Origin: an uncultured virus (IMG/VR IMGVR_UViG_3300033150_001690)
Lineage: Duplodnaviria > Heunggongvirae > Uroviricota > Caudoviricetes
Reading direction: 5' to 3' (one strand)
IMG/VR virus record: IMGVR_UViG_3300033150_001690
DNA: 64,000 bases
Shown: piece by piece, positions 7,896-64,000 of the stretch
Position numbering within the stretch: position 1 is the first letter of the stretch
How the letters are laid out: each line of letters starts with the position of its first letter
Made by a program: the position numbers and the translations under genes
Notes under the pieces: generated by a model
The model's input: only the letters and a program-made list of their open reading frames with translations
Database searches by the model: none
Told to the model about the DNA's origin: nothing

Positions 7896-9029
7896 TTGAG
7901 AGAGATGTTAGAAGAAGAAGAGTATCTAGATAAAATAGTACAAGGTCATGTGTTAGAAGTGTTAAAACAGATACCTTCTGAAGTAGCAGATGCTGTTGTA
8001 ACAAGCCCTCCCTACTATTTTCAAAGGGATTACGGAGAAGGATCTGAAGCAATATGGGGAGGAGATCCTTCCTGTGATCATAAATGGGTAGAATATGAGA
8101 GAGCTAGTAACTGTTGGAGTGTCCCTGGAAGAGGAGCATATGGAGTAAAAGGAGAATATAATAAGGCCTGGGTCAAATCTCATAAACAGGCATTTTGTAA
8201 GAAGTGTGGAGCATGGAAGGGTCAATTAGGTCTAGAACCTGTATGGTGGATGTATATTGAACATCTTAATATGGTCTTTCATGAAACAAAGAGAATATTG
8301 AAGAAGACAGGGACCATGTTTATAGTTGTAGGAGATACATACTTTGGAGGGAGAGGTTTTAACGATCGTAGAGTAAAGAAGAACTTCAGAACTAAGATCA
8401 ACTATGAATTTAGAAAGGAGATGCAGGATAAAGACCCTATCTATCAACCTAAATGTTTAATGGGTATTCCATATAGACTAGCGTTTAGACTAATAGAAGA
8501 TGGGTGGATCTGGAGAAATAACATTATATGGTATAAACCTAATCATATGCCACATCCTGTTAGAGACAGATTAACTAAGGCATATGAAAGTATTCTCTTC
8601 TTTGTAAAGAACAGAAAGTATTTCTTTAATTTAGATGCAATAAGAGAACCACATAAGTGGGCTTCTAAAGACAAACGATCTTTGCTAAGAAGAGTCCCTC
8701 ATAAAAGTGGAAAATCTCTAACTGGTCAATATAGTAGTAATGCAGTAGGGTATCATCCTCTTGGACGTAATCCTGGAGATGTTTGGAAGATTAAAACATC
8801 CTCTTTTAAAGGAGCACACTTTGCGGTCTTTCCTGAAGAACTAGTGAAGAAATGTCTTATAGCAGGCTGTCCTGAAAATGGAGTAGTATTAGATCCATTT
8901 ATAGGAAGTGGTACTACAGCAGTAGTAGCTAAGAGTCTAGGTCTACATTATATTGGCATTGAAGTAGTTCCTAAATATGTAGAGATGGCCAGAAATAGAA
9001 TAAAGGGGAAGTTAGACTATTATCTGTGA
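7896..9029 (+). CDS. Site-specific DNA methyltransferase, beta class (N4-C/N6-A) with Cys/His insertion
   Basis: Motif IV TSPPY precedes motif I DPFIGSGTT; HFAVFP; insert CDHKW...FCKKCGAW. Confidence 0.93.
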   Translation: MREMLEEEEYLDKIVQGHVLEVLKQIPSEVADAVVTSPPYYFQRDYGEGSEAIWGGDPSCDHKWVEYERASNCWSVPGRGAYGVKGEYNKAWVKSHKQAFCKKCGAWKGQLGLEPVWWMYIEHLNMVFHETKRILKKTGTMFIVVGDTYFGGRGFNDRRVKKNFRTKINYEFRKEMQDKDPIYQPKCLMGIPYRLAFRLIEDGWIWRNNIIWYKPNHMPHPVRDRLTKAYESILFFVKNRKYFFNLDAIREPHKWASKDKRSLLRRVPHKSGKSLTGQYSSNAVGYHPLGRNPGDVWKIKTSSFKGAHFAVFPEELVKKCLIAGCPENGVVLDPFIGSGTTAVVAKSLGLHYIGIEVVPKYVEMARNRIKGKLDYYL

Positions 9030-23019: not shown

Positions 23020-23062
23020 TTTTATACTAATTCTATCAATAGATAAATAGAGGGATAACTGA

Positions 23063-24895: not shown

Positions 24896-24896
24896 T

Positions 24897-27266: not shown

Positions 27267-27309
27267 AGGTTTATAGATATAAATATTTCTAAAATAGTAG
27301 GGATATACT

Positions 27310-29211: not shown

Positions 29212-29217
29212 GAATAG

Positions 29218-29550: not shown

Positions 29551-29553
29551 GTT

Positions 29554-35196: not shown

Positions 35197-35238
35197 TTTT
35201 AATAGGAAGTTACAACAATAAACATATGGTGATCATGA

Positions 35239-35784
35239 ATGTCATGGGCCAATATGAGAGATAAAATTATATCTATTCTAACTATGGATGATGGAACAAT
35301 GATCAACTTGCCTAGGTTCTACAAGAAGGTAAGTGAAGGATATGGTTTTGCTATTAGTAAACGATTTGATTCTCTAGGAGCAGGAGAAACCATCTCCTTC
35401 TTCTTCCAGAATCCTTCAGGTTCAGGGAGAATAGGAAATATAATAGATGTAGAAGTAGTAGGTGGAGCTGAACTAGAAGTAGATGTTTATAAAAATAATA
35501 CTCTAAATACTGGAGGTACTACTTTACAAGCTTTAAACTTAAGACCTTCTTCTACTATTCAAAATTCGTTAATAGTTGAATATGGAGGAAATTATACTAA
35601 AGGCACTTTAATATATAATATGGTTGTTCCTGGAGGATCTAAACAATTTGCAATTGGAGGAGCAGTATCTTTAGGTGAAGCTGTAATTTTAGATCCAGGA
35701 GTGAACTTCTTGTTAGACATGATAAATAAATCCGCATCAGACTGTTCGGCTAGTGCTAAAGTAGTATGGTGGGAGGATCCCTAG
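35239..35784 (+). CDS. Probable virion protein
   Basis: Beta-rich and G/N-rich; lies in the head module. Confidence 0.5.
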   Translation: MSWANMRDKIISILTMDDGTMINLPRFYKKVSEGYGFAISKRFDSLGAGETISFFFQNPSGSGRIGNIIDVEVVGGAELEVDVYKNNTLNTGGTTLQALNLRPSSTIQNSLIVEYGGNYTKGTLIYNMVVPGGSKQFAIGGAVSLGEAVILDPGVNFLLDMINKSASDCSASAKVVWWEDP

Positions 35785-35802
35785 AATACATTAACTTTAA
35801 AT

Positions 35803-48728: not shown

Positions 48729-49472
48729 ATGGAAGGAATTATTTCTCCTATAGAAAATGTTCGTATATATTTGAATGGTACATTACTTGTTCAAAAAGAA
48801 CATCATTCCTGGACCTCTTTAGGTCTGGATAGAGTAATGTATCTATTTCTAGGGTCTACTCAAGATGATGCTGAACATAAAGGAACTCTAACTTATCCCT
48901 TTGTTAAAGATAATACAGGAGTAGACCATGCTCTATCTTCTAATGTAACTAAAGAAGCCTCTCTTAATGTGTTGAAGTCTTATGGAGAGGGAGATGGAGG
49001 AATGACCATCGATGAAATAAAGATTAAGGGAGTATATGGAGGAACTTATATTACTTGGTCTATAATAGATATCCAAGACGTTACTGTACCTCCTGGCTGG
49101 AATTTTAGAGTAGAGTGGGAGAGTACATTTACAGGATCAGATTATACATCTGCTGGTCTTAATAAAATAGCTGATGATCTAGATGATCTCACTTCAAACC
49201 TAGGCTTTAAACCAAACAGTTTTGGACTTGTTCATTCAGGAGGTACTCAGTTAGTTGCAATTACTGAATATGATTATGAGATACCTGCTTCTAATACTAG
49301 AACTGTAATCTACAAAGGAAGCATTGGAACAGGAATAGCCTTAACTTCTATTAGCACTATTGAGTTAAGAAAGGACTCAAACATCTGGTCTTCTAAAAGC
49401 ATTACTCCGTTTGATAAATCATCTGATACTTCTCTAGTAATAGAACATAGAAATACTATTACACCTGCTTAG
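48729..49472 (+). CDS. Virion tail/baseplate protein with internally duplicated domain
   Basis: Two units (WTSLGL.../YTSAGL...) similar to the 48266 protein. Confidence 0.55.
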   Translation: MEGIISPIENVRIYLNGTLLVQKEHHSWTSLGLDRVMYLFLGSTQDDAEHKGTLTYPFVKDNTGVDHALSSNVTKEASLNVLKSYGEGDGGMTIDEIKIKGVYGGTYITWSIIDIQDVTVPPGWNFRVEWESTFTGSDYTSAGLNKIADDLDDLTSNLGFKPNSFGLVHSGGTQLVAITEYDYEIPASNTRTVIYKGSIGTGIALTSISTIELRKDSNIWSSKSITPFDKSSDTSLVIEHRNTITPA

Positions 49473-50734
49473 AGTATCTTATAGTAATAGGTATCTTCTT
49501 CATGTTCTTTATGAAGAGCTAACATTAATGCATCTACATAATCATCATCCTTCTTAGTATCCCAGTTATACTTTCTTAGTTGTCTGACCAAGTCAACGTT
49601 CTCTTCAGGTATTCTTATTTTATTCTGATGAAATAGTATCTTCATTCTGGTCTGCATTTGTACTTTAGACTGATTAAATGCTACAGGGACTACATTAAGA
49701 CCTCTAGCTTCTAAACGTTGGTTCTCTCCTACATCTTCTGCATCTGCATATATGACCTGAACATGATATTGTTTGTAGATCTGTTCTATACGATCATGTA
49801 TGGTCTCGAAGTCTTCTCGTCTCCATGCTGCACTATATAATATATTGAATACTCCATTTACTTCTTGAACTACTACAATAGCTGTTGGATGGTCCCATCC
49901 CCAGTCACAACCTATAACAGGAGGTCTACCATAAGGATTATATTGTATCTTCTTTACTCCTTTTACGGCCTGTTTAAGATCACTAAATGGTATTAATATA
50001 TTGGTTTCTTTAGCATATGGTCTTCCTTCCCAGAATACTTCAAACATATCTTCAGGAAGTTTACTAGCCTCCATATACTTCTCTAAAGATATATTAGGAC
50101 ATTCCTTCGCTGACCAATGAAAACGCTTCCATTCAGGATATTTGTCTTCATCCTCCCACATCTCTACAAATAAGGAGTTATACTCCATAGGAGTACCTGA
50201 TAAGATAATAAGATCCTTCTTAGATTGTGCTACTATTCTAAAAGCATCTCTTATTATGAAGTCTCCTGCTAGTACTGCTTCGTCTATTATCACTATATCA
50301 CAATGTTTACCCTGTATGGCCTTTAAACTGTTAGGTACTGCTAGTATCTCTGATCTGTTCTTTAAACGTGTTATAGACATTAGTGGTTCTCCTTCTACTT
50401 CTTCTGTTAGAATAGGATTATCCTTAAAGGCTAATCTAACATACTCGTATAGATTTCTGGCCTGGTCTCTACTACCAGATATTATTATAATAGAATAAGG
50501 ATAATGATCAAACTTACTCTTTACTACAGAATAATATAATGCTATACAGGCCAGTAACTTGGTCTTACCTGTTCCTCCTGCTCCCATTAATAGTATTCGT
50601 TTAGGATTTTGAAGAATATGCTTCAATACTCTCCTCTGATATGGATAAGGATCTTGATTAAAGACATCTTTAAAGAACGAAGAAGGATCTTTACTCCATT
50701 TCAAGAATTGCAGTGCTCTAAGAACTTGATCCAA
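49469..50734 (-). CDS. terL: Terminase large subunit
   Basis: PYPYQ, Walker A GAGGTGKT, Walker B VIIDEA, SGTP, RNase H-like nuclease GCDWG...DDYVDA. Confidence 0.93.
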   Translation of the reverse strand: MDQVLRALQFLKWSKDPSSFFKDVFNQDPYPYQRRVLKHILQNPKRILLMGAGGTGKTKLLACIALYYSVVKSKFDHYPYSIIIISGSRDQARNLYEYVRLAFKDNPILTEEVEGEPLMSITRLKNRSEILAVPNSLKAIQGKHCDIVIIDEAVLAGDFIIRDAFRIVAQSKKDLIILSGTPMEYNSLFVEMWEDEDKYPEWKRFHWSAKECPNISLEKYMEASKLPEDMFEVFWEGRPYAKETNILIPFSDLKQAVKGVKKIQYNPYGRPPVIGCDWGWDHPTAIVVVQEVNGVFNILYSAAWRREDFETIHDRIEQIYKQYHVQVIYADAEDVGENQRLEARGLNVVPVAFNQSKVQMQTRMKILFHQNKIRIPEENVDLVRQLRKYNWDTKKDDDYVDALMLALHKEHEEDTYYYKIL

Positions 50735-51245
50735 AGGTCTCCCATCTCTCCCTAAACTTCTCTATTAGTTCTGGAGGGAAGTCCTCCATACAATATAATA
50801 TTCTAGTAAATATATCCTCTTTAGCAGGTTCTAATTGAATTTTAGAAGACCATTTAAGAAGCTCTTCTATTATTAACCTGGTCTCTGCTAAATAGTCTAA
50901 TAAGACCTTCTCTTCATCTTTACTTAATGAAGCACTTTGTACTAAACTCTCTATTTTGTTGGAGCATATCTCCAGGTTTCTAGTTAGTCTTTGTGCTATT
51001 TGGATATCTTTTCTAATACTCTCTCTTAGTACCTTCTGTCTTAGTTGAGAAGACTTTCTTAGTTCATTAAGATACACTTCTACGTGATTATTAAAATGTC
51101 TAACAAAGGAGTAATATCCGATATCTTCTCCATACTTCTCTTTAGCATATTCTTGGATCTCTTTAATACTCTTTCTCTCTACAAATCTCATATGTTCATA
51201 TTCTGTTCTGTGGAGAGATCTACAAACATTACATACTCGACCCAT
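50718..51245 (-). CDS. Probable terminase small subunit (start ATG 51245)
   Basis: Directly upstream of terL; CNVC...RH-x3-H plus helical domain; GGTGA RBS (TCACC at 51250-51254 on +). Confidence 0.7.
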   Translation of the reverse strand: MGRVCNVCRSLHRTEYEHMRFVERKSIKEIQEYAKEKYGEDIGYYSFVRHFNNHVEVYLNELRKSSQLRQKVLRESIRKDIQIAQRLTRNLEICSNKIESLVQSASLSKDEEKVLLDYLAETRLIIEELLKWSSKIQLEPAKEDIFTRILYCMEDFPPELIEKFRERWETFGSSS

Positions 51246-51437
51246 TATATCACCATGAAGGATAATGACCGGGTCATTTATTAATTTATCGCACAAGGTC
51301 TGATTATTGTACTACACAGTAGATAGTGCACATCTTATGAGCAGGTAAGAAGGGTGTTTCTTCTTCTCTCTCTCTTTTATTTTTGAATTTTAAAATGTTA
51401 AATATGAGTTATGCATATTTGCTTATAGGTGTCAAAT

Positions 51438-51971
51438 ATGAACGGAAACAAATACGTAAATATTAGGCAACTAATAGGTTGCCTTTATCCATCGGAATTG
51501 AAAGGTATAAGTAAAATTGAGTTAAAGGGAAATAGCTTATACATAACCACAAATACACCATCAAGACACCATAAGCCTATAAGAGTAATTCCTAATGTAG
51601 AACAACAACAATACTTAGAATTTCTTAGATTTGTTCAAGAGATTAAAGGCTTATCAGTTAGGCAAATTGAACGTAGAATTAAGCGATTATTTGGTGTTTC
51701 TACAAGAGTATTAAGAAAAACATTAGCGAATCAAGTATTGATAAAGACACAAAACCTAGGAAAGGTTAAGAATACTCTAGGACATAACAAGATGAAAAAT
51801 GTAGCGTATTATCTAAATCCCTTAGAGATTGCTGATAAAATAGGTGAACAGCAAACCCTAGAATTACTCAACAAAACTGAATATGGAATGCTGTTAAACC
51901 TAATACGTTTAGCTGTTAGAGTAGAATTAAAGCGTCTTTATAAGAATACTAAAATAGATTACGTTAAATAG
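51438..51971 (+). CDS. Minimal, degenerate tyrosine-recombinase-like protein
   Basis: STRVLRKTLA...LGH-x7-YY resembles XerC/D box II; box I reads GCLYPSEL without the catalytic Arg. Confidence 0.65.
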   Translation: MNGNKYVNIRQLIGCLYPSELKGISKIELKGNSLYITTNTPSRHHKPIRVIPNVEQQQYLEFLRFVQEIKGLSVRQIERRIKRLFGVSTRVLRKTLANQVLIKTQNLGKVKNTLGHNKMKNVAYYLNPLEIADKIGEQQTLELLNKTEYGMLLNLIRLAVRVELKRLYKNTKIDYVK

Positions 51972-52011
51972 ATGTCGTTATTCGAACAGCGACATCTAAC
52001 CCTTATTTTTT
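51969..52011 (+). terminator. Hairpin plus T-tract
   Basis: TAGATGTCG...CGACATCTA followed by TTATTTTTT. Confidence 0.65.
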
Positions 52012-52053
52012 CTACACAAAATATTTAAGCACATAACACAATATAGGGTAATT

Positions 52054-52305
52054 GTGGGAAAAATGCAGACAACGATAAAAGACTTTAACGACTTTAAGCG
52101 ATACGTTGAACAGCAGATAAAACAGCATGATTTTATGATTTTAGATAAGCCACCGATTACTATTAGGAAACGTGAACCATTCCTTATGGCTTTACCGACA
52201 TTATGGGGTTATGTAATCTATCAAGCATTTAGACATCACAGCCCGAAAGAGATATGGCTAACATTTCAAGAGATAAAGCGAATACATGAAATAGCCACAC
52301 AATAA
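52054..52305 (+). CDS. Hypothetical protein (own TATA-like promoter and terminator)
   Basis: ORF preceded by AAAATATTTAAG. Confidence 0.55.
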   Translation: MGKMQTTIKDFNDFKRYVEQQIKQHDFMILDKPPITIRKREPFLMALPTLWGYVIYQAFRHHSPKEIWLTFQEIKRIHEIATQ

Positions 52306-52486
52306 AACAACGATATAAGGATATACTATATTCCCTTTCCCTATTTTTCTGTTATACTGTTTCTCTGTATGTATGTTTCAATGGTTTAACTGCACATTTT
52401 CAACATTACACATACCTTAAAATTGGCTACAACTACGCAACATTTATAAAGCATTATTTCGCATACTTTACCATGAGTGAACCGAC

Positions 52487-52723
52487 ATGGATTTCAAGCA
52501 GTTAATAAGCGACATTGAACCCGATGCTAAAGCCCGACAAAAAAGCGATGAACCTAAATATTACATTATTTTCGATAAAAGCACTGTGAAAATTGATGGT
52601 AAAGAGTACAAGCTAAACACTGATGGAATAGCGATTCTGGAGAAGGCACTAGGCACACGCAACCGTAAGCTAATGGCTAAAAGGCTATTAGCTTTACTGA
52701 TACGACTTGCTAAGAGTAAGTAA
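52487..52723 (+). CDS. Hypothetical protein
   Basis: ORF preceded by TTTATAAA and GAGTGA. Confidence 0.6.
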   Translation: MDFKQLISDIEPDAKARQKSDEPKYYIIFDKSTVKIDGKEYKLNTDGIAILEKALGTRNRKLMAKRLLALLIRLAKSK

Positions 52724-52769
52724 GGTTTTAATTCTTATTTACTCTTAGCTTTATTCCCCTTTTTTTTTT
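52709..52769 (+). terminator. Long hairpin plus T10 tract
   Basis: GCTAAGAGTAA...TTACTCTTAGC followed by poly-T. Confidence 0.7.
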
Positions 52770-52795
52770 ATGAATAAAATGTTAGGTGTTAGAAC

Positions 52796-53224
52796 ATGAA
52801 TGATTTAAACTTTAACAAGATAAGAGATGTAGTTAAAGATATTACACAACCGAATAGGAAAAATCTTAAAACCTTATTAGCAGAAAAATATCCTACGTTC
52901 ACAATTTGCTTATTATCACGATGTAAACACATAACTGAATGTTGGGACTTAGAAACACTTAAACCTAAACCTAATTCTAATATTCAGAAATGTAAAACAT
53001 TCCTAAATGCTTTAAATGTTTACTCTAAACCTAAGGACTATCATTTTTCTAAGGCAGAAAACTATATAGCTTTCAGCCCACAAGAGTTAAGTTTAATCAT
53101 TTTAGGATTAAGGTTATTATCTCAAGAGTATAAGGAAAAAGCACAAGTATTAAGGCTATTGGATAAGCTATCTTATGTTAATTCTCTTTATGGAAAACAT
53201 ACAGAAAAAGTAAGGATAAGGTAA
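52796..53224 (+). CDS. Hypothetical Cys-containing protein
   Basis: ORF with AGGTG RBS. Confidence 0.55.
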   Translation: MNDLNFNKIRDVVKDITQPNRKNLKTLLAEKYPTFTICLLSRCKHITECWDLETLKPKPNSNIQKCKTFLNALNVYSKPKDYHFSKAENYIAFSPQELSLIILGLRLLSQEYKEKAQVLRLLDKLSYVNSLYGKHTEKVRIR

Positions 53225-54689
53225 TTATAATGTTTAAAATTCTTGTTCTTATTAGTGAAATAGTTATTATTCTCTATTTCACGTATGTTTGTTTATGCTT
53301 AAGAAAGTGGAAGAAAGAAAGTGAAGAAGAAAGAGGTAAGAGAAGAAATGATTGAAGAAACCACGAATAAAATAAAAGAAGAAGAAATCGTAAAAGCTAT
53401 ATCCTCTCCATTACAAATGGTAGAAGTCTCCAATACTCTTTTTAGAAATACGAAGAATGCCCTAAGAGCATGGGTAGGGAAGAAAGGAAAAGCAAACATT
53501 ATTCTAAGTAAATTTAGAAGATTCTATTCTCTTAACATCTTCTTGGGAAATGTTTATGCTTTGTGCTGGAATAATGGTCTTCTCTTCTCCGATGGAATAG
53601 AGGCTGAAGTTCTTATAGAGCCTCCTGTATGTAATATAATGATACTGAAGAAACGGACGAAGATATTTGAAGTACAAAACTATCACTATTCTTCTTTAGA
53701 AGAAATCATTAATAGATGTTTGGTCTTAATGAGTATTAAGAAAGACACAACTATCGATTATAGTTTTATAGATGGAGAAAGATTTGTAAATATTTCTAAT
53801 GTATTTAAGGCATTAGAAGAAATTATAAGAGGTTGAAGAAATGGGAACTGATATATACTTGGAATATGAAGGAAAACCTGAGAAGTATACATTTAAAGAA
53901 GGATCCTACATTAGGGCAAGTATCTTCTCCATAAAAGAGAATACTGTTCTAAGAATGATATTTCCTAAGAAGTATTGGGAAGCAGGAGGACCACTAAGAT
54001 ATAGGTTTTCTAAGAAGAAACTTGAAGAATTGAAGGTTATTCTAAATATGTATCTTAAATCTTATTTGGAGAATAAGAAGTTAGAATGCAAGGAAGCAAA
54101 GGAATATGAAGAGTTTGGAGAAAGAGTTGCCTTATTACTTTGTTCTTGTTGTGAGAGAGTAGAAATATCTAGACCAGAGAATATTGAATTTGCTAGAAGA
54201 TGGGCTAGGTCAGTGATCTCCTTCTTTGAGAAAGGTCTTGAATTAGAAAAGGAAGGAAGAAGACCTAAAGTGTTAATATCATGGTAAAACGATAAGGAGG
54301 GATAAAGAAATGGAGATAAAAGATAAAGATTTGAAGAAAACAATAATTGAAGAAATTAAAGAAAACCTAGAAGACATAGATGAAGGAAAACATAAACATC
54401 ATAAATTAACCTGTGTAGTAGATTTAATTGTTAGCTATGATTACGGAGAAATTAAACTAGAAGACGTAGATGTAATTCAAGGAGAATGTGAGACCTGTAG
54501 GGATGAAGACGGAACTCCTTATTGTTTATGGGGTTAGAAAAGAATAAAGGAGGGGAAGAAGAAATGGTCTTTAAGAAGAAGAAAATATGGAATAAAAACA
54601 TAAACGAATATGTATGGGTCAATATGACCACGGAAGAATGGCTACAAAGATTAAGAGAAGTAGAGAACGACTAAAGGAGAAGAGGATAA

Positions 54690-55043
54690 ATGTTTTATAA
54701 GAAGATACTTAGATGTTCTAATTGTGGAGTACCTGCTTCTTTTACTTCTAATTATATTGATAAAGAAGGTTATCTTCACTGTGGATACTGTGGTAATATA
54801 GCTCCTCCTGTTATGGAGAAGAGAATAGATACTATGTACTTCTATATTGAAAGAAGAGGTCTAAGATGTCCTTCTTGTGGTGTTTCTCAAGCATTTATTA
54901 CAATTAAAAAGAATGGAAGAAGATATAGATGTTCTAAGTGTAAACACGAATGGGATATAGAAGAACGTTTAGATTATAAGGAGAGAAGAGAAGAGTTTCT
55001 AAGAAATCCTGTTATGAAGAAGTATATGAAGGAGGTAGAATAA
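54690..55043 (+). CDS. Double Zn-ribbon protein
   Basis: CSNC, CGYC, CPSC, CSKC. Confidence 0.7.
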   Translation: MFYKKILRCSNCGVPASFTSNYIDKEGYLHCGYCGNIAPPVMEKRIDTMYFYIERRGLRCPSCGVSQAFITIKKNGRRYRCSKCKHEWDIEERLDYKERREEFLRNPVMKKYMKEVE

Positions 55044-58000
55044 AATGGGAAGAATAGAAGATCTGAAGAAGAAAGTTGGATATCTTCTAGCTAATATTGG
55101 ACAAGAAATAGAGATCAATGATCCTATAACTGGAGGAATGAAGAGGTTTATCTTTGAAGGTTTTGAAGAAGGAGGAAATGAAAAAGGAGAACCACTAATG
55201 GTCGTAAGATACCCTAACTCAAGGATCTTTAAACAATATCACATTGACTATCTTTTAATAGAGGAGGAGAATGAAGAATGAAGAAAAGTTTCTGGAAGTG
55301 GCTTAAAAGAGGTCTTTCTCTTAATCTAGAATTCTTTAAAATATTCTTTGTTGTTCTTCTCGGAAGTCTCTTTTTATCAGCAGGACTTCTATTTGCTGAA
55401 GATCATCCCTTAATTCTTCTTCTTATTATTCCTGGAATCTTATTAATTCTTTATTATATTTTCTTATTAGTTGAGGAGTAAGAAGTTGACCAAATACAAT
55501 TGCAATAAAGCGAAAGATCAAATCATTGTCAAATATGGTCTATGTGGTGAAATGATACAATATTCAGAAGAAGAGAATAGTAAATCCATAGAGAAGAAGA
55601 TAATTACAAGATGTAGAATATGTGGAAGAAGAATAACAATTACCTGGAGAAAAGATAATGAAAGATGGAGAATAGTAAAGAAGGATCCTTCTTCAGCCTT
55701 TTACGATGAAGGAAACTATGGTTGGGTCTGTAGTGAGAAATGTAAGAATATTAGACCTGTTATTTGAAGACCAGTAATGCTCCTATAAGGCTAGACCATA
55801 AGAATTCTTCTTATGGCTAGAGACCTTAAAAGGAGGTGTTGGAAGAATGAGATTTGAATATGGAGTTGAAGTAGATGAAGATACATTCAATAAGATAAGA
55901 TCGTTAGATGAAGAACGAAGAAGAATATTTGATGAAGACATTAAAGAAGCTCTGAAGAACAGGGTTAATGTTTTAACTAAGGAGGGTCAAATTTGAGGTT
56001 AGAAAGAAATAAATTGATATTATCGAAGGAAGAAATAAAGAAGCTTTATGCAGAGTTGAGTTGTTTGTTTGACTTCGTAGATCCGTTTCCAGAGACCTTA
56101 TTAGAATTGATGCAGGTATTGGAAGAACCTACCAATAATTGAAGAAGAGGGAGTAGAAGTGAGAAACGAAGAGATAGGTGAAAGAATAAGAAGACTCTAT
56201 TCCAAATACATCAAGATCTATGCTTCTAGAGGATATAAAGCACCCAACATGGAGGACTTCCTAGAATGGATAGACTCTCAATTAGAGGAAATTTAATGGA
56301 GGAAGAATATTTTGTGGAGTGTAGGTCAAACATTATACGATAAGAAGAATAAGGAATTAGTATTGTACTTAGGAGTAGGAGTATTCTCAGTTAAACCTAT
56401 AAAAAATATCTTGAAGAACAGTCTTCCTAAAGAACTAGCAAATAAAGAATTCTTCGGGATTATGATGATACGAAGAAAAAACGGGAGAACAGAATTTCTA
56501 AAGAATAAAGAAGATAAGGATAACTTAACTCATATTTACGATAAGAAGACGGGAAGAATAGCTATAGGAAAATATTCTAGAGGATTCTTCTTTGGTTTCT
56601 TAGGAGAAGATGTTGAAGATATCCGTAATATGTTTCCTGATGAGAGTATATTTCCAGATGGAGAAAGGTATATTCCTGGGAGGTAGAAGAAATGACAAAA
56701 AACATTATTGAAACAGAAGACTTTATAGTAAGTCGCTTCTGTTGTGGAGAAGGAAAGATCTGCTATCAGATTAACGAGAAGAATCGAACAGATAATTGGA
56801 GACATGTTCAAATTACTGAAGAACAACTGAAGAGATTATGTTTATGGTATCTGAAGAATGAAGTTTATCCTCAATTAAAATGTAAAAAGGAGAAAGAAGA
56901 ATGAGCAATTGGACCCATATAGCTGGAGTTATTAGAATAGACCATTTTGCTTATGGCGTAAGACCACTATTAGAAAATGAAGCTAAAGACATTATCTCTG
57001 AAGGATCTCCTATTGGAAGCGAAGGTGGTCTAACATTTATAGCAAATAGAACTCAGGTAATAAGACCTTCTGGTTTTGATCTAGTGTGGGGATCTGTTTC
57101 CTTTGTAGGAGATCTAAGAGACTTCTCTATAGAGGATCTTCCAAAGATAACTAAGTGGTTAGAAGAAATACCTGGAAGATTAGAAGAAAGACAGGGTTGT
57201 ATTAGACAGGGTATTGTTCTAGTTGAGATAGAAGAAACAGAAGAAGAAAGAATATTCATATTTGATGTTGAAGAAGAAGCATGGAAGGAGGTGGAGTATA
57301 ATGACAAAGTGGAGATATCTAAATGATGAAGAGAAGGTATCACTTCTTAAGAAGTATATTCAGGGAAGAGTTCTTAGAAGAGTATCATTAGAACAAACTT
57401 CAGGATATTCTCTTCTTGTGTTAGATTTTGGTAATGGGATCAAGTTGAAGATAACAGATGGAGAATATGGAGATCTAAGATGTGTAGATATTATTCAAAA
57501 TAATAAGAAGATAGTTATGCTCTTAGATGATGAAGAACATCCCTGTCAGCTTACTACGTTTGAAGAAGTTCATAATAATCCTAAGATCCTTTATGTTCCT
57601 TATTAGAAGACATGAATTTGAAGAAGAAAGGAGAATTAGAAATTGGCAAGGAATATTTTGAAGACAGATGATATAATTATAACTGAATTCTTCGGAGGTA
57701 AAGGAAGAGGATCCTGTTTTCAAATAAATGTGAAGGATTGTCAAACAGGAGAATGGAGAATGATCAGAATAACTCGATCACAACTAATCAGGATAATTGA
57801 TTTTATGGTGGATGGAGTAAAATGACCAGAGTAAGATGTAAGAATTGTGGTTGGGAAGGAGATCCTTCAGAACTAATAATTCTTCTAGATAAGAGATTAG
57901 TTCCTCCTACTTGTCCGAAGTGTCTAAGTCAAGACCTGTCCCTAATAGAAGAACAGAAATATAAAATGAAGACTTTTATCATAGAAATAAGAGAAGATAT

Positions 58001-59317
58001 TTGGGAGAAGATACTATCCTATGTTAAAGAGAAGACAAGAGTGGGAACACTTTTAACTAATGATACATGGGGAATATGGAGATATATTCTATCTAAACAA
58101 TTAACTATACAGGATACATTTCCTGTTTCTTCTTTAAGAGTATTTGAAATAAAATGGTCTCCTTCGGATCTTTAACATGGAGATTTGAAAGATGAATAAC
58201 GATAAGATATTAGAAGAAATTAAAGCATGGTTAGGAAACAGACTAATACCTAAAGAAGATGCAGATCTTCTTCTTGACCTGGTCATTCAGTATGGGAATG
58301 AGAAGGAACACGAAGGAGAACTTATTGGAGAAGAACGTGGGTATGAAGAAGGATATGAAGAAGGATATGGAGTAGGTTATAGTAAAGGAAGAGAAGAAGG
58401 TATTACTGAAGGAAGAGATCAAGTAATATCAGAAATAGAATATGATCCTCTTATTTCTTTCGAAGATAAACGAAGTGTCTTACGAAGATTTGGAATATTA
58501 GTTTAAGGAGGAAGAAATAAAATGCGAATATATGAAGAACTACCCTGTGGATGTCTGGTCTCTAGAGAAGATCAAGCTATGATACCTTGTTGTTATCCAG
58601 AAGTGGGTCAACGACCGTCTAAACTTCATTTAAGATGTATGGAGTTATTCTTCAAAGAAGGAAAGTCAGTAGAAGAGATTAAACAAATTGTGAAAGAAAG
58701 GAAGGTTTAACGAATGAAGATCCTTTCTGAAGAAGAGAAGAATTGTATTGAGATCGCAATAGATAAATTTAGATTTTATAAATCTCTTCTTAAGGCCCAT
58801 CTAGATACTCTTACTTGTTATTGTAAGACCTGTAAAGAGAAGTCATTTGAGGCCTGTAGTGATTGTGATGTTTATAAATATCTTAACAAAATTCTTAAGG
58901 AGTTCTAAGAATGAAGAGACCCAAACTAACTAAAGATACGGAGACAGGAATTAAGAACGCTATAGATGAGTATCTTCTTTCTAGAAGAGTATTAGAGATC
59001 TGGTTAGCTATTCTTACTTCTATTTGTGGGAGATGTAAACTGTCTTCTAAATCCTGTATAGATTGTAAAATTGGGAAATATAAAGATAAACTTGTGGAGA
59101 TCCTTGACAATGAGTAAGAAGAAAATGATCAAAGGATCTATTCCTGTAGAAGAAGTTAAGAAGAGTATTAGTATACTTCAAGAGAAGATCAAAGAACTCA
59201 AAGAAGATCTTGAAAAGGCTAAGGAATTAGAAGAAAAAATACAGATTCTACATCTTTTACAAATTTATGAGAGAGACCTTACCTTATTTCAGGGTCTTTT
59301 AAAGGAGATTAACTAAG

Positions 59318-59419
59318 ATCTTCGGGCAGAAAGGATATGGAAGAAGTTACATGATACCGAACTTCAACCATACAAAGAACTTTTGGACCCAACTTCTTCC
59401 ATATCCCTGTAAAGAAGAT
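59318..59419. ncRNA. Candidate structured RNA: perfect 16-bp stem within a bulge-helix-loop
   Basis: GGATATGGAAGAAGTT (59333-59348) pairs with AACTTCTTCCATATCC (59391-59406); intergenic. Confidence 0.5.
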
Positions 59420-61894
59420 TGGGAGGAGTAAAAATACCTCTTAATTGTATCTTATGTGGAAGAAAATATCTGAAGAAGGACTGGAGAGATCATTTAAGGA
59501 GAGATCATAGAATACCTGAAAAATTTATTGATAAGTATAAGTTCTTCGTTATAAGAAGAAGTGATACTAACATTCCTGTTATAGAAGACAGTAAATGTCC
59601 TTCCTGTGGGTCAACTATTTCTCCTAAGATATTATATTGGAGACAAGATGGACCCGAAGAAGAGGTAAGTAAAGCAAGAAGGTTATATCATCTTCCTCTT
59701 CTTCTCACTGGATACTGTCCTAATTGTGGTCAGTTAGTCTTCATACGTAAAGTTTATTTGATTAAAGAAGGTGACCAGGTCACAGGTGAAAAGCAATGAG
59801 AACAGAAGAAGAGATAAGAAAGAAGTTAGATACTCTTCGTAGAATGAGAAGATATGAGTTTAGTAGATGGAAGGGAGTACTATTTGACCAGAAGATTAGA
59901 GCATTAGAATGGGTCCTAGAGGAGTTGGAGGACCTATGATCCCTAGATGTCCTGTATGTAAACACCCATTAGAAGAAGTTAGGGAAGAATATAGATCTGT
60001 TTCTACATACAAATATTCTTCTAATGATCAAGGATATGACGTAATTAAAGATGAAGAAAACTTTGTTTTAGTATGTCCTTATTGTGGTTCTGTTCTTCCT
60101 AATAAAGTAGCTGAGAAGATTATTCCTAAACTTCCACTTCCTTCTTCTATTAATCTCTAAATGAGGAGAATTTGATGTGTAATGTTAGATGTGCAAACTG
60201 TGGTCGTATAATAGATTCTGAAGATTCTGGAGAAACAGCCTTTTGTGAACAATGTTATAAAGAAGTAATCAAAGAGGTAGAGAGAAAAGCATATTTAGAA
60301 GGATTTAATCACGCAATAGAACTATTAGAAGTAACTTATAAAGAACTAACTAAAGAAAAATAATGATAGACCCTCCACTAAAGAAGTTCTTCTTCTTTAA
60401 GGGAGAAAGGTCGGTATACATGAGAGATCCAAACATTTTTAGAGAGTTTAATTTAGAAGAAGAGGCACACATAGATGAAGTGGTTCATGTATTGGAAGAA
60501 TTAGAACACTGGTCTACTTCACCATTGAAGGAGAAGATAGAGTGTAGACTAAGAGAGTAAAGGAGGTGAGAATGAATGAACAAAATAGTGATTCCCTTAG
60601 AAGAGCTCCTAAGAGTAGTTTGGAAGAAACATAATGGTGAGATGACAGATGAAGATGTGGAAGAATGGTTCGAGAGAAAGACATCTGCTTCTTCAAATAA
60701 GGAGGAAGAAGATTGATAGAAAATCTCGTTGTAATTGGAATGATCGGAGAAATAGTGAAGTTATTAGGATATCTTATATTAGAAGAACATGGAAATGAAA
60801 GAATAACTTCATGGGGATGTTCTCTGTTTTCTTCTGGTGTTAGCAGGTCTATTTCTCTAAAGGAGGTATGAACTTGCTTATTCTTCAGAAGTTTAGTTGT
60901 CCTAACTGTAGATACTTCTATAGAGTATTGTCTGAGGTCTATACTGATAAACAAAAGGAGGTCTTAGAGACACAGGAGGTATCCTGTCCTAGATGTAATA
61001 CTAGAATGAATCTTATTACTGAAGAAGTATCAGACATCTTCTCTTCAGTTAAAGATGGAGAAAACATTAGAATATATCTCTTTGGAGATGAAATAGTGAA
61101 TATCTCTCCTGAAGAGATTAGAGTTAATTTAGGTAATTTGATCTTCAATGGATTTAATGGTCTTGTTTCTATTGAATATTCTCTAAATAATATTGTTTCT
61201 TTAGAGGTCTTTCCTGACTCTCAAAGTTATGCATTTTTCAAGAAGAAGAACAAAAAGAAATTAGGAGAATAGAACATGTCTAAGAATTGGAAGAGAAGAT
61301 TTAAGAGACTTCATAAACGATTTATAAAAGAAATGACCAGTATTCTAGAGTCTTCTAAGCTTCTAAGTGAAGAGAAACTTCTACAAGTAATTGGGACCTG
61401 GAATTTAGATCTATCTGAGGTCTACAATTTTCTAGTAAGTGAAGAGAAGAAGAAAAAGAGATTAACAGAAGGAGTTAAAGAGGCTAAGAATAATAAACAA
61501 GAGTCTTCTAATAACGAAGAACTGAAGAGGGCAACTTCTACTTCATCTTATTATGGATACTCCTATGTTGTATATCCTTCCACTAAGAAAATAAGTGAAG
61601 TGGAGAAGGATTTAGATTGAGTAAGATAGAAGAATTAAAAAAATATGTTCTTCAGTTGAGAAATAAAACAATAACTGATAAAGAGATCGCCCAAGTAATG
61701 AAATTAATTAATGAAGCATTAGACGAAACATATACTTCAGGTTATAGTCAAGGATCTTATGAAGGATACGAAGAAGGATACCATGCTAGATATGAGAGTT
61801 AGGAGGTAATATTTAAAAGAAAAACAGGATTACCTTATTCTTATGATCTTATTCTTCAGAATTATATCAGAAGATAGTTAAAGAGAGGAGAATA

Positions 61895-62791
61895 ATGACG
61901 ATTTATATTCTAACTAATGTGACCTCTTCATTATATAATAAACCTACAGGTCTAAAACTAGCAGAACTAGGAGGGTTTACTCCAATTAGACCTAGTGACC
62001 TGGTCAACCTTCATCCTGAGAGAGGAGATGTATTAATACGATATGGTATTTCTTCTTATCCCAATAAAGACCTAGAGTTTACCATAGGTTGGGTCTTTAA
62101 TAAAGCAGATGATATCAGGAAGGCTTCTAATAAACTAATAGCTTCTAGAATCATGTATACTCATTCTATTGATACTCCTAAGATATGGACCAACAAAGAT
62201 CTAATAACAGAAGATGATCTTCCTGTTTTAGGAAGAGATCAGTATCATTCCAGAGGATCTGATATTGTCTTCATAGATACCATGGAGAAGTTAAGAAGAA
62301 GTCATAAAGACTATTACTCCAAATTTATACCTTCAATAGCAGAGTATAGACTTCATGTGTTTAAAGGAGAGCCAATTAGATTAAGTAAGAAGATCCCTAC
62401 TGAAGAAGAGAGTATTATTCATAACTTTGAGAATGGCTATAGATTTATGGATAGATGGGGGAGAGAAGAGGGAGATCTAGAACTAGAAACTAATGTAGTA
62501 ATACCTGCTGGTCTAAGGGCTATAGAGGTCTTTAACTTAGATTTTGGAGCAGTTGATATTCTAATATCTGAAGGGAAAACTCCATATATATTGGAGGTTA
62601 ATACTGCTCCTAGATTAAATAAATATGGAAGACAATTATATGTTTACTACTTCAGGTCTAAGTGTATGAGTGAAGATGATGACCCAGGGAAGTATGCTTA
62701 TACTAATTATTCTAGATTAAGATTAAATGAAGGACCACTAAGTAATGGTCTACCTATAACGTTTAGAGATATTGTAAAAAGAAGGAGGTGA
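61895..62791 (+). CDS. ATP-grasp ligase (RimK/YheC-like)
   Basis: ASNK, EYRLHVF, LDFGAVDI, ILEVNTAP. Confidence 0.88.
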   Translation: MTIYILTNVTSSLYNKPTGLKLAELGGFTPIRPSDLVNLHPERGDVLIRYGISSYPNKDLEFTIGWVFNKADDIRKASNKLIASRIMYTHSIDTPKIWTNKDLITEDDLPVLGRDQYHSRGSDIVFIDTMEKLRRSHKDYYSKFIPSIAEYRLHVFKGEPIRLSKKIPTEEESIIHNFENGYRFMDRWGREEGDLELETNVVIPAGLRAIEVFNLDFGAVDILISEGKTPYILEVNTAPRLNKYGRQLYVYYFRSKCMSEDDDPGKYAYTNYSRLRLNEGPLSNGLPITFRDIVKRRR

Positions 62792-62795
62792 AGAA

Positions 62796-62984
62796 TTGGA
62801 AGAAGAAGACATGAAGTTCTTCTTTACATTCTTTCTATTGATTCTTTTATGAATCTTCAACTTATTAGGAGAAGTATCTAAACTAACAGAAAATACAGTT
62901 CATCAAGTAATTGCTATAATAGGATCAACTATTTGTATTATTGGTCTTGTTCTAGCATACATAGGAGACAGAATATTCTCTTAG
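62796..62984 (+). pseudogene. Two-TM membrane protein gene interrupted by an in-frame TGA (62850-62852)
   Basis: MEEEDMKFFFTFFLLILL*IFNLLGEVSK...IAIIGSTICIIGLVLAYIGDRIFS*, preceded by GGAGGTGA RBS. Confidence 0.5.
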
Positions 62985-63048
62985 TCTTCCTTCCTTGGAA
63001 TCCTGAATGAGGAGTACCTCTTCAGGACAAGGAGAGTGAAGAAGAAAT

Positions 63049-63255
63049 ATGAAAATATATTGTAAAATAGAAGATGTTTCTATGGATCCAGAAGGGAATA
63101 TAGTGTTGTTCTTTAGTAAAGAAAAAGAGACAACTAGAGAAGTTACAATATCTTTATTGAAGAATTGGATAGGTCAAGAAGTTATTATCACAATATCTCC
63201 TTTGGTAAGAAGACATGACCAGGTCACGGAGGATATAGGAATTGAAGGTGTATAA
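63049..63255 (+). CDS. Hypothetical protein
   Basis: ORF between the two ligase genes. Confidence 0.55.
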   Translation: MKIYCKIEDVSMDPEGNIVLFFSKEKETTREVTISLLKNWIGQEVIITISPLVRRHDQVTEDIGIEGV

Positions 63256-64000
63256 ACAAGGAGTAGAACTAGAAGGATTTGTAGTAGAAGAAGATGCTAC
63301 ACCACTAGTGAAGGATCATAATCTCCATGCTGAAATGACCGATCTCTTCAAACATCGAATCTTTAATAGATATTACTACGATGATAGTAAGCCAGAGTTT
63401 CCTTCTAATCCATATAAATCTGTAGGAGGTCTAGCTAATCATCTTTCTTCAGTGATATCTGGAGCAACAGATCTAGCTAAGAGTAAGAATGTAAACTATA
63501 TATTAACAGGATGCTTCCCATTCTGGCAGGACTTCGCTTCAGGTCATATCCACACATCTCTAGTAGATATGAAGGAAGATGCCTGGAAGGAGATGAAGAG
63601 GAAGTTATATAACGCACAACCTATGATAGCTCTTCTATCTGCTAATTCTCCACTAATGAAGGGAGTGTTTAAAGCTAGTGATGTTAGACTCTCCTTCTCT
63701 TCTTGGAGTAGATTTACTGATTATGATAGAGATACTTCTGATCACTATATGGCATTAGCCAAAGGAGAAGGAGGAGCTACTCTGGAGTGTAGAATACCTT
63801 CTTCATCTTCTCTATATCAGATACTTGGTATAGCAATATTCATTAGAATATTGTTAGAAGACGAAGATACTACTCTTCCTATATTCTATACTAGAGAGAT
63901 CTTTGATAGGGTAACTAAATATGGATCAGAAACACTAGTTCCTGTTGGTCTTCCTAAAGGAGTGACCTATCACGGAGTAAAACTGAAGAAGGCACATGTT
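63242..64000 (+). CDS. Glutamate-cysteine ligase family 2 / carboxylate-amine ligase (3'-truncated by the window; absent from the ORF track)
   Basis: Manual translation gives GVELEG, GHIHTS, ALLSANSP, TLECRIP. Confidence 0.8.
   Translation, partial: MKVYKQGVELEGFVVEEDATPLVKDHNLHAEMTDLFKHRIFNRYYYDDSKPEFPSNPYKSVGGLANHLSSVISGATDLAKSKNVNYILTGCFPFWQDFASGHIHTSLVDMKEDAWKEMKRKLYNAQPMIALLSANSPLMKGVFKASDVRLSFSSWSRFTDYDRDTSDHYMALAKGEGGATLECRIPSSSSLYQILGIAIFIRILLEDEDTTLPIFYTREIFDRVTKYGSETLVPVGLPKGVTYHGVKLKKAHV

What the first reader, a model, noticed from the sequence alone, without database searches (positions are those of the whole stretch)
51301..53575. 2.3 kb GRYC-free island beside the terminase genes in a GRYC-rich genome
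Seen: GATC, GGTC, GACC and GGCC (together GRYC) are conspicuous throughout the window, often as GRYC-N-GRYC pairs (e.g. 2378, 3411, 39493, ~44353, ~46167, 50459). I found none between 51301 and 53575, where roughly 15 are expected from base composition alone. GAAGA/TCTTC is also absent from ~51370-53300, and CG-containing codons are more common there. The block begins at the strand switch next to terS and has short units, mostly with their own TATA box and hairpin/T terminator. Known: in T5 the first-transferred terminal segment is a special pre-early region. Inference: this is the genome end or first-injected segment, kept free of a site that is either restricted by the host or bulkily modified by the virus (MTase or GT cluster) elsewhere. 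The alternative is a recently acquired element.
Basis: partly seen in the sequence, partly recalled or inferred. Interest (0 to 1): 0.75.

Follow-up and report, generated by a model that had tools for sequence, protein, structure and literature searches.

The report
Restriction-site-free early module beside terminase genes
A 2 kb stretch next to the DNA-packaging genes of a probable archaeal tailed virus is written in a different sequence "dialect" and lacks short restriction-type words, and relatives show similar purged stretches at the same junction, which suggests DNA that meets host defences first.

Summary
GRYC occurs 940 times in 64 kb. The only long gap is 51297-53576 (2279 bp; the next longest is 433 bp).

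"GRYC" is probably not one site. The block at about 51300-53300 is the strongest compositional outlier of the window:
- CpG o/e is 0.75 against 0.23 for the whole window.
- GC skew is near zero.
- Arg codons are often CGN.
- All six best tetramer gaps of the window fall on it.

The block holds four or five separately transcribed small ORFs. The first has a tyrosine-recombinase fold.

Relatives, found through TerL at 40-71% identity, have a CpG-relieved, hypervariable island at the same junction between terminase and small genes. Position-defined islands of 13 relatives are poor in GATC (0.19) and GTAC (0.28), unlike their bulk (0.71 and 1.12). One complete 110 kb relative has a 14.8 kb GTAC-free segment that starts 171 bp after TerL (P~2e-16).

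Best reading (0.5): a hypervariable leading, immediate-early arm purged of host restriction targets, as in T5 and T7-like phages. The termini are not mapped. The main rival (0.27) is a hot spot of foreign cassettes. The bulk excess of GRYC (1.7 times a synonymous-shuffle null) is unexplained.

The parts
49469..50734 (-). Large terminase subunit (TerL)
   Evidence: Pfam Terminase_6C at 2e-17; phrog_2 at 1e-35; 72 homologues.
50718..51296 (-). Conserved gene upstream of TerL, taken as the small terminase subunit by position. The last GRYC sites before the gap lie in its first codons.
   Evidence: tblastn hits directly upstream of TerL in 26 loci. No Pfam or PHROG family. GRYC at 51156-51297.
51297..51428 (.). 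Divergent intergenic region and left edge of the island. It holds a pyrimidine tract at 51357-51378 and an A/T-rich TATA-like stretch before the first ORF.
   Evidence: Sequence read. Imperfect inverted repeat with the purine tract at 53311-53332, 82% complementary.
51429..51971 (+). 180 aa protein with a tyrosine-recombinase catalytic-domain fold and no N-terminal DNA-binding domain.
   Evidence: Atlas feature score 0.96 to integrase clusters. AF2 pLDDT 88.7. Every listed Foldseek PDB hit is in the tyrosine recombinase, protelomerase or topoisomerase IB superfamily; the best is XerA 5hxy at E 6.5e-4. NCBIfam XerA_Arch at E 4e-4, below the curated cut-off. Box II aligns to IntI4. Only 8 relatives among 1.84 billion representatives.
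51969..52012 (+). Hairpin followed by a T-run, a terminator-like site.
   Evidence: (I9); sequence.
52054..52305 (+). 83 aa ORF with no known family.
52306..52486 (.). 181 bp non-coding spacer with TTTATAAA at 52443-52450, 37 nt before the next start codon.
   Evidence: Sequence read.
52487..52723 (+). 78 aa ORF with a homologue inside the island of relative L013.
   Evidence: tblastn 32% identity, E 2.5e-8, L013 6711-6896.
52709..52769 (+). 17-pair hairpin followed by a T-rich tail and a T10 run, a terminator-like site.
   Evidence: (I5); sequence.
52796..53224 (+). 142 aa ORF with a homologue inside the island of relative L005.
   Evidence: tblastn 33% identity over 138 aa, E 9e-10, L005 2369-2764. 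The Atlas model has low confidence.
53230..53355 (+). 41 aa ORF with a hydrophobic N-terminus. Coding status is uncertain.
53310..53576 (+). Right edge of the island. GAAGA-rich bulk dialect resumes at 53310, at the start of the 171 aa ORF 53321-53836. The first GRYC is at 53576.
51297..64000 (+). Whole arm of small plus-strand ORFs to the right of the terminase genes. It is poor in GTAC and GGCC relative to the left 51 kb.
   Evidence: GTAC 8 against 26.6 expected by length; GGCC 2 against 12.3. Early genes: GTAC 4 against 11.0 in synonymous shuffles, z -2.7.
7896..9029 (+). Beta-class N6A/N4C DNA methyltransferase, the only DNA-modification gene recognised. Its specificity is unknown.
   Evidence: Pfam N6_N4_Mtase at 1e-47. 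Closest solved chains are 9c3u and 8urk, then M.MboIIA 1g60 at E 1e-19.

Best explanation
The block is the first roughly 2 kb of the early arm of a probable archaeal tailed virus.

What it is:
- It lies at the junction between the late genes with the terminase and a run of small genes that all read away from the terminase.
- It consists of four or five small genes, each with its own A/T-rich promoter-like box and a terminator-like T-run or hairpin. The first gene is a short tyrosine-recombinase-like protein.
- It is also free of short restriction-type words: GATC, GGTC/GACC and GGCC are absent, CAGG/CCTG occurs once, and GTAC is scarce.

Proposed mechanism (inferred, not shown): this is the DNA that meets the host's restriction enzymes before a viral countermeasure acts, because it enters or is expressed first. 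Sites in it are selected against, while the rest of the genome is not under that selection. This is the logic of the T5 first-step-transfer segment and of the leading region of T7-like phages, which is also hypervariable. Different lineages of this virus group purge different words, as expected if their hosts carry different enzymes.

Shown: the anatomy, the composition, the conservation of position, and the purges in relatives.
Inferred: the order of entry, the existence of a countermeasure, and the identity of the host enzymes.
For: 1. The gap is real and its left edge is sharp, at the first codon of the terS-like gene.
2. An unbiased scan of 136 strand-symmetric tetramers puts the six most significant gaps of the window all on this block: CTTC/GAAG, CAGG/CCTG, GACC/GGTC, CTCC/GGAG, GATC and CCTC/GAGG.
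3. The position is conserved. In 15 of 15 viruses tested, the roughly 2 kb at this junction has higher CpG o/e than that virus's own bulk. In 10 of 15 its dinucleotide distance from its own bulk exceeds the 95th percentile of random 2 kb pieces.
4. Position-defined islands of 13 relatives, window excluded:
   - GATC: 9 against 47.1 expected (0.19); bulk 0.71.
   - GTAC: 13 against 47.1 (0.28); bulk 1.12.
   - GGWCC: 0 against 6.4; bulk 0.60.
   - GGNCC: 0.10; bulk 0.47.
   - CCWGG: 0.31; bulk 0.86.
   - CTAG (2.0), AGCT (1.9) and CATG (1.0) are not avoided.
5. In 12 of 12 GRYC-poor relatives the island o/e is at or below the bulk o/e.
6. The complete relative G004 (109,754 bp) has 290 GTAC sites but none from 22312 to 37073. 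This 14,761 bp gap starts 171 bp after the TerL stop (P~2e-16). The next best tetramer is at P~3e-4, and the segment is not otherwise odd in CpG, skew or GATC. Its ORFs are small and read away from TerL.
7. In G003 the best gap of the genome (CAGG/CCTG, 3,234 bp, P~2.5e-9) starts 135 bp after TerL. In G002 the two best gaps (CATG and CAGG/CCTG) lie directly upstream of terS.
8. In the window, the whole right arm is poor in GTAC (8 against 26.6) and GGCC (2 against 12.3). GTAC is also low at synonymous level: 4 against 11.0.
9. Precedent: the abstract of PMC12455610 reports that phages lacking a Type I motif in the leading, first-injected region infect despite motifs elsewhere, and that leading regions are highly variable. 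Passages of PMC10644984 describe the T5/BF23 first-step-transfer segment.
Against: - No terminus is mapped. The three runs that hold related sequence are contigs of relatives at 85-95% likeness, with no start or end signal.
- The related complete records assemble as circles with 48 and 114 bp overlaps. A fixed end at the junction is therefore an assumption.
- One of four complete relatives (G005) has no purge beside its terminase.
- Restriction avoidance does not explain why the block also lacks CpG and GpC avoidance, purine skew and AGA-type Arg codons.
- CpG-containing palindromes are less avoided in islands than in bulk: TCGA 0.51 against 0.14, ACGT 0.57 against 0.40.
- Within the block's own codon usage the expected GRYC number in the ORFs is only about 3.
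- No anti-restriction gene was recognised in the block.
- In relatives GGTC/GACC is not island-specific.
Confidence: 0.5

Rival explanations
1. The junction is a hot spot where foreign cassettes are repeatedly gained and lost, possibly helped by the recombinase-like gene. The block is young DNA from a donor pool with near-neutral CpG. The missing GRYC is mainly the missing bulk enrichment plus the donor's own signature, not selection at entry.
For: - The block is the top dinucleotide outlier of the window (delta* 0.206; CpG 0.75 against 0.23; GpC 1.23 against 0.59).
- Its tetramer profile is uncorrelated with the bulk signature: rho 0.13 against 0.36-0.68 in 26 control windows.
- CpG and GpC are neutral in all three codon phases.
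- Only 2 of the 5 block ORFs have any homologue in the islands of 14 relatives, each in one relative at about 32% identity. terS and TerL are found in all.
- A strain variant skips 1566 bp just right of the block.
- The first gene has a tyrosine-recombinase fold.
- Homologues of that gene sit on short contigs of 0.5-7.5 kb.
Against: - Zero GRYC against 8.5-14 expected from the block's own composition still needs avoidance.
- The 14.8 kb GTAC-free segment of G004 has an ordinary dialect, so foreign origin cannot explain it.
- The islands of different viruses are not closer to each other (delta* 0.160) than to their own bulk (0.153), so no single donor dialect is visible.
- No match to GenBank phages or PLSDB plasmids.
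- No flanking direct repeats beyond low-complexity tracts.
Confidence: 0.27
2. The block is the integration and lysogeny module of a temperate virus: recombinase, small regulators and an attP site. It is expressed in the carrier state, and its composition tracks the host rather than the lytic genes.
For: - The first gene is tyrosine-recombinase-like.
- The genes are small and monocistronic.
- There is a 181 bp non-coding spacer that could hold an attachment site.
Against: - The family appears to lack the box I arginine, and the window copy has K in place of the box II histidine.
- The protein has no N-terminal DNA-binding domain.
- No tRNA or tRNA fragment is in the window or the block.
- No repressor or excisionase family was hit.
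- No host flank or att repeat was seen.
- Islands of relatives do not carry a detectable homologue of this gene.
- This reading does not explain the purges.
Confidence: 0.1
3. The bulk genome is modified at GRYC, or at a longer word that contains it, by the viral methyltransferase or another enzyme, and sites are favoured there. The block is the unmodified part.
For: - GRYC is 1.7 times a synonymous-shuffle null in bulk genes, in all three frames.
- A beta-class methyltransferase is encoded at 7896-9029.
- The palindrome TGACCNGGTCA occurs 16 times exactly against 0.68 expected with up to one mismatch.
Against: - The excess is strand-asymmetric on the coding strand: GGTC 2.43 times against GACC 1.64 times, and AGGTCT z 13.7 against AGACCT z 3.5. 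This points to codon-pair or mRNA context rather than a double-strand site.
- Methylation would cover the block too.
- The sugar genes sit with a UbiA prenyltransferase and look like a glycan pathway.
- The specificity of the methyltransferase cannot be read from sequence.
Confidence: 0.06
4. The gap is a chance gap or a plain base-composition effect.
For: The block is lower in G (16.6% against 21%). Its ORFs would carry only about 3 GRYC under their own codon usage.
Against: - P is about 1e-6 to 2e-4 from the block's own composition.
- Six independent words have their longest gap here.
- The same junction is purged in relatives.
Confidence: 0.02

Closest known systems
First-step-transfer (pre-early) segment of phage T5 and BF23
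   Same: Both are a defined segment next to a genome landmark that holds small genes of mostly unknown function read by the host polymerase. In T5 sensitivity to a restriction enzyme depends on sites in that segment while the rest of the genome carries sites. That last point is recalled from Davison and Brunel 1979; I saw only the titles in the reference list and the surrounding passages of PMC10644984. G004's purged segment is 13% of its genome, against about 8% for T5.
   Different: T5's segment is a 9.7-10 kb terminal repeat at a mapped physical end with an injection stop signal. Here no end, no repeat and no stop signal is known. The host is probably an archaeon. The window's fully purged part is only 2.3 kb.
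Leading (first-injected) region of Autographiviridae (T7-like) phages
   Same: Motif-free leading regions decide sensitivity to restriction while motifs elsewhere are tolerated. The leading region is highly variable and encodes anti-defence genes (abstract of PMC12455610). Here too the region is hypervariable and purged, and its genes read inward.
   Different: The known case concerns a Type I motif in a bacterial podovirus with mapped ends. Here 4-5 bp words are involved, no anti-defence gene is recognised, and entry order is unknown.
Horizontally acquired islands and morons in phage genomes
   Same: Atypical composition, own promoters and terminators, variable content, and a recombinase-like gene at one edge.
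   Different: The position is conserved across viruses whose TerL is only 40-71% identical. The block is depleted of specific words below its own compositional expectation.
Tyrosine recombinases (XerA, integrases, integron integrases)
   Same: The first ORF has the fold and the box II motif (R, H, Y).
   Different: It is only 180 aa and has no core-binding domain. The box I arginine was not found, Pfam gives no hit, and the family is very small.

Membership tests
T5-type first-step-transfer or leading segment | Lies at a physical end of the packaged genome | not testable with these tools
   Only contigs of relatives were available. The end repeats of related records are 48 and 114 bp overlaps.
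T5-type first-step-transfer or leading segment | Lacks restriction-type sites that are common in the rest of the genome | tested here: met
   Window. Relatives.
T5-type first-step-transfer or leading segment | Enters the cell first and is transcribed first | not testable with these tools
   No infection or RNA data. The gene direction, away from the terminase, is compatible.
T5-type first-step-transfer or leading segment | Encodes a function that neutralises restriction | tested here: inconclusive
   No family hit for 4 of the 5 ORFs. None was tested functionally.
T5-type first-step-transfer or leading segment | Is duplicated as a long terminal repeat | tested here: not met
   No second copy of the block in the 64 kb window. 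The rest of the genome was not available.
Tyrosine recombinase (ORF 51429-51971) | Catalytic-domain fold | tested here: met
   AF2 pLDDT 88.7. Every listed Foldseek PDB hit belongs to the superfamily; TM by query reaches up to 0.49.
Tyrosine recombinase (ORF 51429-51971) | Box II R, H/W and the tyrosine nucleophile | tested here: met
   R96 and Y127/Y128 are invariant in the family. LGH aligns with IntI4.
Tyrosine recombinase (ORF 51429-51971) | Box I arginine and the second box II histidine | tested here: not met
   The family has YPxE where the arginine is expected from recalled consensus. The window copy reads LRK, not LRH. The box I placement rests on my reading of the alignment.
Tyrosine recombinase (ORF 51429-51971) | Curated family score | tested here: not met
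   No Pfam hit. NCBIfam XerA_Arch scores 19.9 bits against a cut-off of 220.
Integron-like cassette array | IntI-type integrase, an attI site, and cassettes ending in related attC hairpins | tested here: not met
   The ORF is half the length of IntI. The two hairpins share no core and are followed by T-runs.

The most novel reading that the evidence does not exclude
Tailed viruses of archaea deliver their genome in a fixed direction and in stages. The stretch beside the terminase genes is the leading segment: 2.3 kb here and 14.8 kb in the 110 kb relative. Each lineage has purged from it the target words of its host's restriction enzymes, and it encodes still unknown anti-restriction functions that let the rest of the genome keep, or even accumulate, those words. 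The length of the purge would then mark the first-transferred DNA, readable from sequence alone.
Probability: 0.33. Interest if true: 0.8.

Novelty: new variant of a known kind. Interest (0 to 1): 0.62.

Why it matters
To my knowledge nothing is known about how tailed archaeal viruses deliver their DNA or deal with restriction at entry; I ran no literature search on that specific question. A sequence signature that marks a leading segment would give a testable prediction for entry order. The signature is a sharp purge of lineage-specific words that starts within about 200 bp of the terminase genes. It would point to the small ORFs most likely to be new anti-restriction proteins. It would also offer a way to infer the restriction repertoire of uncultured hosts from viral contigs alone. 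Finally, it shows that whole-genome site counts can mislead, because what matters may be where the sites are.

Tried and rejected
- Whole genome of the window: not held.
- DNA similarity of the block and of the terminase region to GenBank phages, and of the block to PLSDB plasmids: no match.
- Single-protein scans of IMG/VR with TerL and with the 180 aa ORF: nothing.
- GTDB genomes: only two binned viral contigs were found, so there is no host call.
- Sequencing runs: three hydrothermal-vent runs hold 6-10% of the sampled words. Laid down, they are contigs of relatives at 85-95% likeness. No place where molecules begin or end was reported, so they gave no verdict on termini.
- Contig ends near the junction looked enriched among relatives. 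I dropped this as evidence because the IMG/VR 'terminal repeats' are 48 and 114 bp overlaps of circular assemblies, and hypervariable regions break assemblies anyway.
- tRNA, attP or RNA families in the block: none.
- A very-short-patch-repair-like origin of the GRYC excess: GATT and AATC are under-represented, but GGTG, TACC and AGCC are as well. The excess is also strand-asymmetric. I did not pursue this.
- Island ORFs of relatives as transposases: only weak N-terminal helix-turn-helix hits, with no DDE family found.
- An integron reading: rejected (see the membership test).
- Earlier findings of this scan: none on record.
- Literature: two full-text searches listed no paper on site-free early regions in archaeal viruses. 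One search call failed on a short term.
Full report
**What the window is.** The 64 kb window has 34.7% G+C and nearly all genes on the plus strand. It encodes a Mu-type portal, a capsid protein, a tail tube, a tape-measure-like protein and TerL. It also encodes an archaeal/eukaryotic-type Rad51/RadA recombinase (Pfam 1e-38), an anaerobic ribonucleotide reductase, a sugar and glycosyltransferase cluster, and one beta-class DNA methyltransferase. It has no DNA match in GenBank phages.

TerL has 72 homologues in metagenomes. One is named after a Thorarchaeota bin. Two related contigs sit in Thermoprotei and Woesearchaeota bins. Three hydrothermal-vent runs hold relatives. I take it as a tailed virus of an archaeon. 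The host is not identified.

**The observation.** A recount gives 940 GRYC sites and one long gap, 51297-53576 (2279 bp); the next longest is 433 bp. The block's own composition predicts 8.5-14 sites. The rest of the window has 940 against 441-580 expected.

In bulk genes, synonymous-codon shuffles that keep protein sequence and codon usage give 485 +/- 12.6 against 824 observed. So the excess lies in how codons are arranged, in all three frames.

- There is no GAAGA or TCTTC from 51363 to 53309.
- Arg is CGN in 12 of 30 codons against about 10% in the bulk.
- The block starts at the start codon of the minus-strand gene that precedes TerL.
- Two hairpin plus T-run sites are present.

**GRYC is probably not one site.**
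- The four words differ in excess on the coding strand: GGTC 2.43 times, GGCC 1.85 times, GACC 1.64 times and GATC 1.38 times.
- At 5-6 bases the excess is strongly strand-asymmetric: AGGTCT z 13.7 against AGACCT z 3.5, and CAGGTC z 11.8 against GACCTG z 4.4. This speaks for a codon-pair or mRNA-level component.
- Of the 32 GRYC-N-GRYC pairs, 19 are GACC-N-GGTC.
- Most of those belong to a dispersed palindrome, TGACCNGGTCA. It has 16 exact copies and 23 with up to one mismatch, against 0.68 expected.

**The block is a compositional island in every respect.**
- It is the top dinucleotide outlier of the window: delta* 0.206, CpG o/e 0.75 against 0.23, GpC 1.23 against 0.59, and GC skew near 0 against +0.2 to +0.4.
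- CpG avoidance in the bulk holds in all three codon phases (0.19-0.28) and is absent from the block's ORFs (0.75-1.0).
- The block's tetramer profile does not correlate with the bulk signature: rho 0.13 against 0.36-0.68 in 26 control windows.
- In an unbiased scan of all 136 strand-symmetric tetramers, the six most significant gaps of the window all fall here.
- The dialect boundary is at about 53310, where GAAGA resumes. The last 265 bp of the GRYC gap are ordinary bulk DNA.

**Content of the block.** There are four ORFs of 180, 83, 78 and 142 aa, plus a doubtful 41 aa ORF. Each has an A/T-rich box 25-45 nt upstream and a T-run or hairpin after it.

Evidence that the 180 aa protein is tyrosine-recombinase-like:
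- The language-model atlas places it with integrases at a score of 0.96.
- An AlphaFold model built on 8 sequences has pLDDT 88.7.
- All listed Foldseek PDB hits are tyrosine recombinases, protelomerases or topoisomerase IB. The best is XerA at E 6.5e-4, with TM 0.49 by query.
- A profile of the family aligns its LRHxLAT...LGH...YY stretch to box II of IntI4.
- NCBIfam gives a weak XerA_Arch hit.

Limits on that assignment:
- Pfam gives nothing.
- The box I arginine seems to be missing.
- The window copy has K for the second box II histidine.
- The family has only 8 members among 1.84 billion representatives.

The other ORFs have no family.

**Relatives.** A TerL alignment retrieved 30 metagenome loci and 8 IMG/VR loci.
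- The terS-like gene precedes TerL in 26 loci.
- In the closer clade the 1-4 kb beyond terS is again CpG-relieved, unskewed and poor in GRYC.
- In a more distant clade the same kind of island lies just after TerL. In both clades it sits between the terminase and a run of small ORFs that read away from it.
- CpG o/e is higher in the island than in that virus's own bulk in 15 of 15 viruses.
- Gene content turns over. Of the five window ORFs only two have a homologue in any relative's island (78 aa in L013 and 142 aa in L005, both about 32% identity). Other islands share other ORFs pairwise.

So the position is old and the content is fluid.

**Site avoidance at the junction.** To avoid circularity I defined islands by position, as up to 2 kb upstream of terS, in 13 relatives and left the window out.

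| Word | Island observed / expected | Island o/e | Bulk o/e |
|---|---|---|---|
| GATC | 9 / 47.1 | 0.19 | 0.71 |
| GTAC | 13 / 47.1 | 0.28 | 1.12 |
| GGWCC | 0 / 6.4 | 0 | 0.60 |
| GGNCC | – | 0.10 | 0.47 |
| CCWGG | – | 0.31 | 0.86 |

- CTAG, AGCT, CATG and TGCA are not avoided.
- GGTC/GACC is not island-specific (0.61 against 0.69).

Gap scans on whole related records:

| Record | Best tetramer gap of the genome | Position relative to the terminase |
|---|---|---|
| G004 (109,754 bp, CheckV 100%) | GTAC, 290 sites genome-wide, 14,761 bp gap, P~2e-16 | starts 171 bp after the TerL stop |
| G003 | CAGG/CCTG, 3,234 bp, P~2.5e-9 | starts 135 bp after TerL |
| G002 | CATG and CAGG/CCTG (the two best gaps) | directly upstream of terS |
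| G005 | none beside the terminase | – |

- In G004 no other word comes near the GTAC gap, and the segment is ordinary in CpG, skew and GATC.
- CCGG, CGCG and GCGC are absent genome-wide in all four records. GGCC is absent or nearly so in three.

In the window the whole right arm (51297-64000) is poor in GTAC (8 against 26.6) and GGCC (2 against 12.3). GTAC is also low at synonymous level.

**Reading.** Two things are superimposed at this junction.
- One is rapid gene turnover, which explains the foreign dialect.
- The other is a purge of short restriction-type words that starts sharply at the terminase genes and differs between lineages. The G004 case shows the purge can occur without any change of dialect.

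The simplest model that covers both is a hypervariable leading, immediate-early arm. This is known from T5 and BF23 (passages of PMC10644984) and from T7-like phages. In the latter, motif-free leading regions decide sensitivity to restriction and are highly variable (abstract of PMC12455610).

That GATC, GTAC and GGNCC are specificities of archaeal restriction enzymes, for example in Methanocaldococcus, is recalled and comes from no call.

The model is inferred. No terminus, entry order or countermeasure is shown. Related genomes assemble as circles.

**What stays unexplained.**
- Why the bulk avoids CpG so strongly, down to 0.02 in relative L012, while the island does not.
- Why GGTC, GACC, GATC, GGCC, CAGG/CCTG and GAAG/CTTC are over-represented in the bulk beyond codon usage.
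- What the virus-specific dispersed palindromes do.
- The methyltransferase's nearest solved relatives include M.MboIIA, whose recalled site is GAAGA. This is only a lead.

**Verdict.** It is a new variant of a known phage strategy, seen here in probable archaeal viruses.

Noticed in passing
window, 16 exact copies, e.g. 453, 4987, 5774, 19722, 51266, 63216: A dispersed palindrome, TGACCNGGTCA, occurs 23 times with up to one mismatch against 0.68 expected. Most copies lie inside ORFs. It is absent from all 69 fetched loci of relatives. Other relatives have their own palindromes: GATAGTNACTATC in G004 and G005, and TTCAACGTTGAA in G002, with 17-38 copies each.
   Followed up: partly
relatives G002-G005 (whole records); window bulk: CCGG, CGCG and GCGC are absent genome-wide in four relatives of 69-114 kb. 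GGCC counts are 0, 0 and 2 in three of them, yet the window has 62 GGCC. Bulk CpG o/e falls as low as 0.02-0.05 in L012 and L002.
   Followed up: partly
window bulk genes: The coding strand is strongly enriched beyond synonymous shuffles for TCTTC (225 against 71), CTTCT, GGTCT, AGGTCT (64 against 13.6) and CAGGTC. TTTT and AAAA are at 0.43-0.52 of expectation. This may partly reflect avoidance of T-runs inside operons.
   Followed up: partly
window 29554-35196 (+): A 1880 aa ORF joins an N-terminal metallo-beta-lactamase-fold domain to an ATP-dependent DNA ligase domain.
   Followed up: no
window 10718-20170 (+): A ten-gene sugar cluster: GT4 and GT2 glycosyltransferases, a GT2 fused to a radical SAM/SPASM domain, a UbiA prenyltransferase, a dual-specificity phosphatase, two epimerase/dehydratases and a nucleotidyltransferase.
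   Followed up: no
window 53335-54902: A contig of a relative in run X1 joins 53335 to 54902 with 29 other letters between. This is a strain variant lacking about 1.5 kb (three small ORFs) just right of the block.
   Followed up: no
L003 2057-4300, L013 9995-12193, L016 2534-4786: The TerL reading frames of three relatives are 732-750 aa, and the match to the window's TerL stops at residue 279-307. This suggests an insertion such as an intein or an added domain. Proteins P0011 and P0027 (727-732 aa) look the same.
   Followed up: no
window 61895-62791 and 63242-64000 (+): An ATP-grasp-type 'ribosomal protein S6 glutaminyl transferase' family hit (phrog_2599, 1e-28), followed by a weak COOH-NH2 ligase-like ORF.
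   Followed up: no
window 51357-51378 and 53311-53332: A pyrimidine tract and a purine tract, 82% complementary, bracket the compositional island 1.93 kb apart. They are low-complexity and may be coincidence.
   Followed up: no
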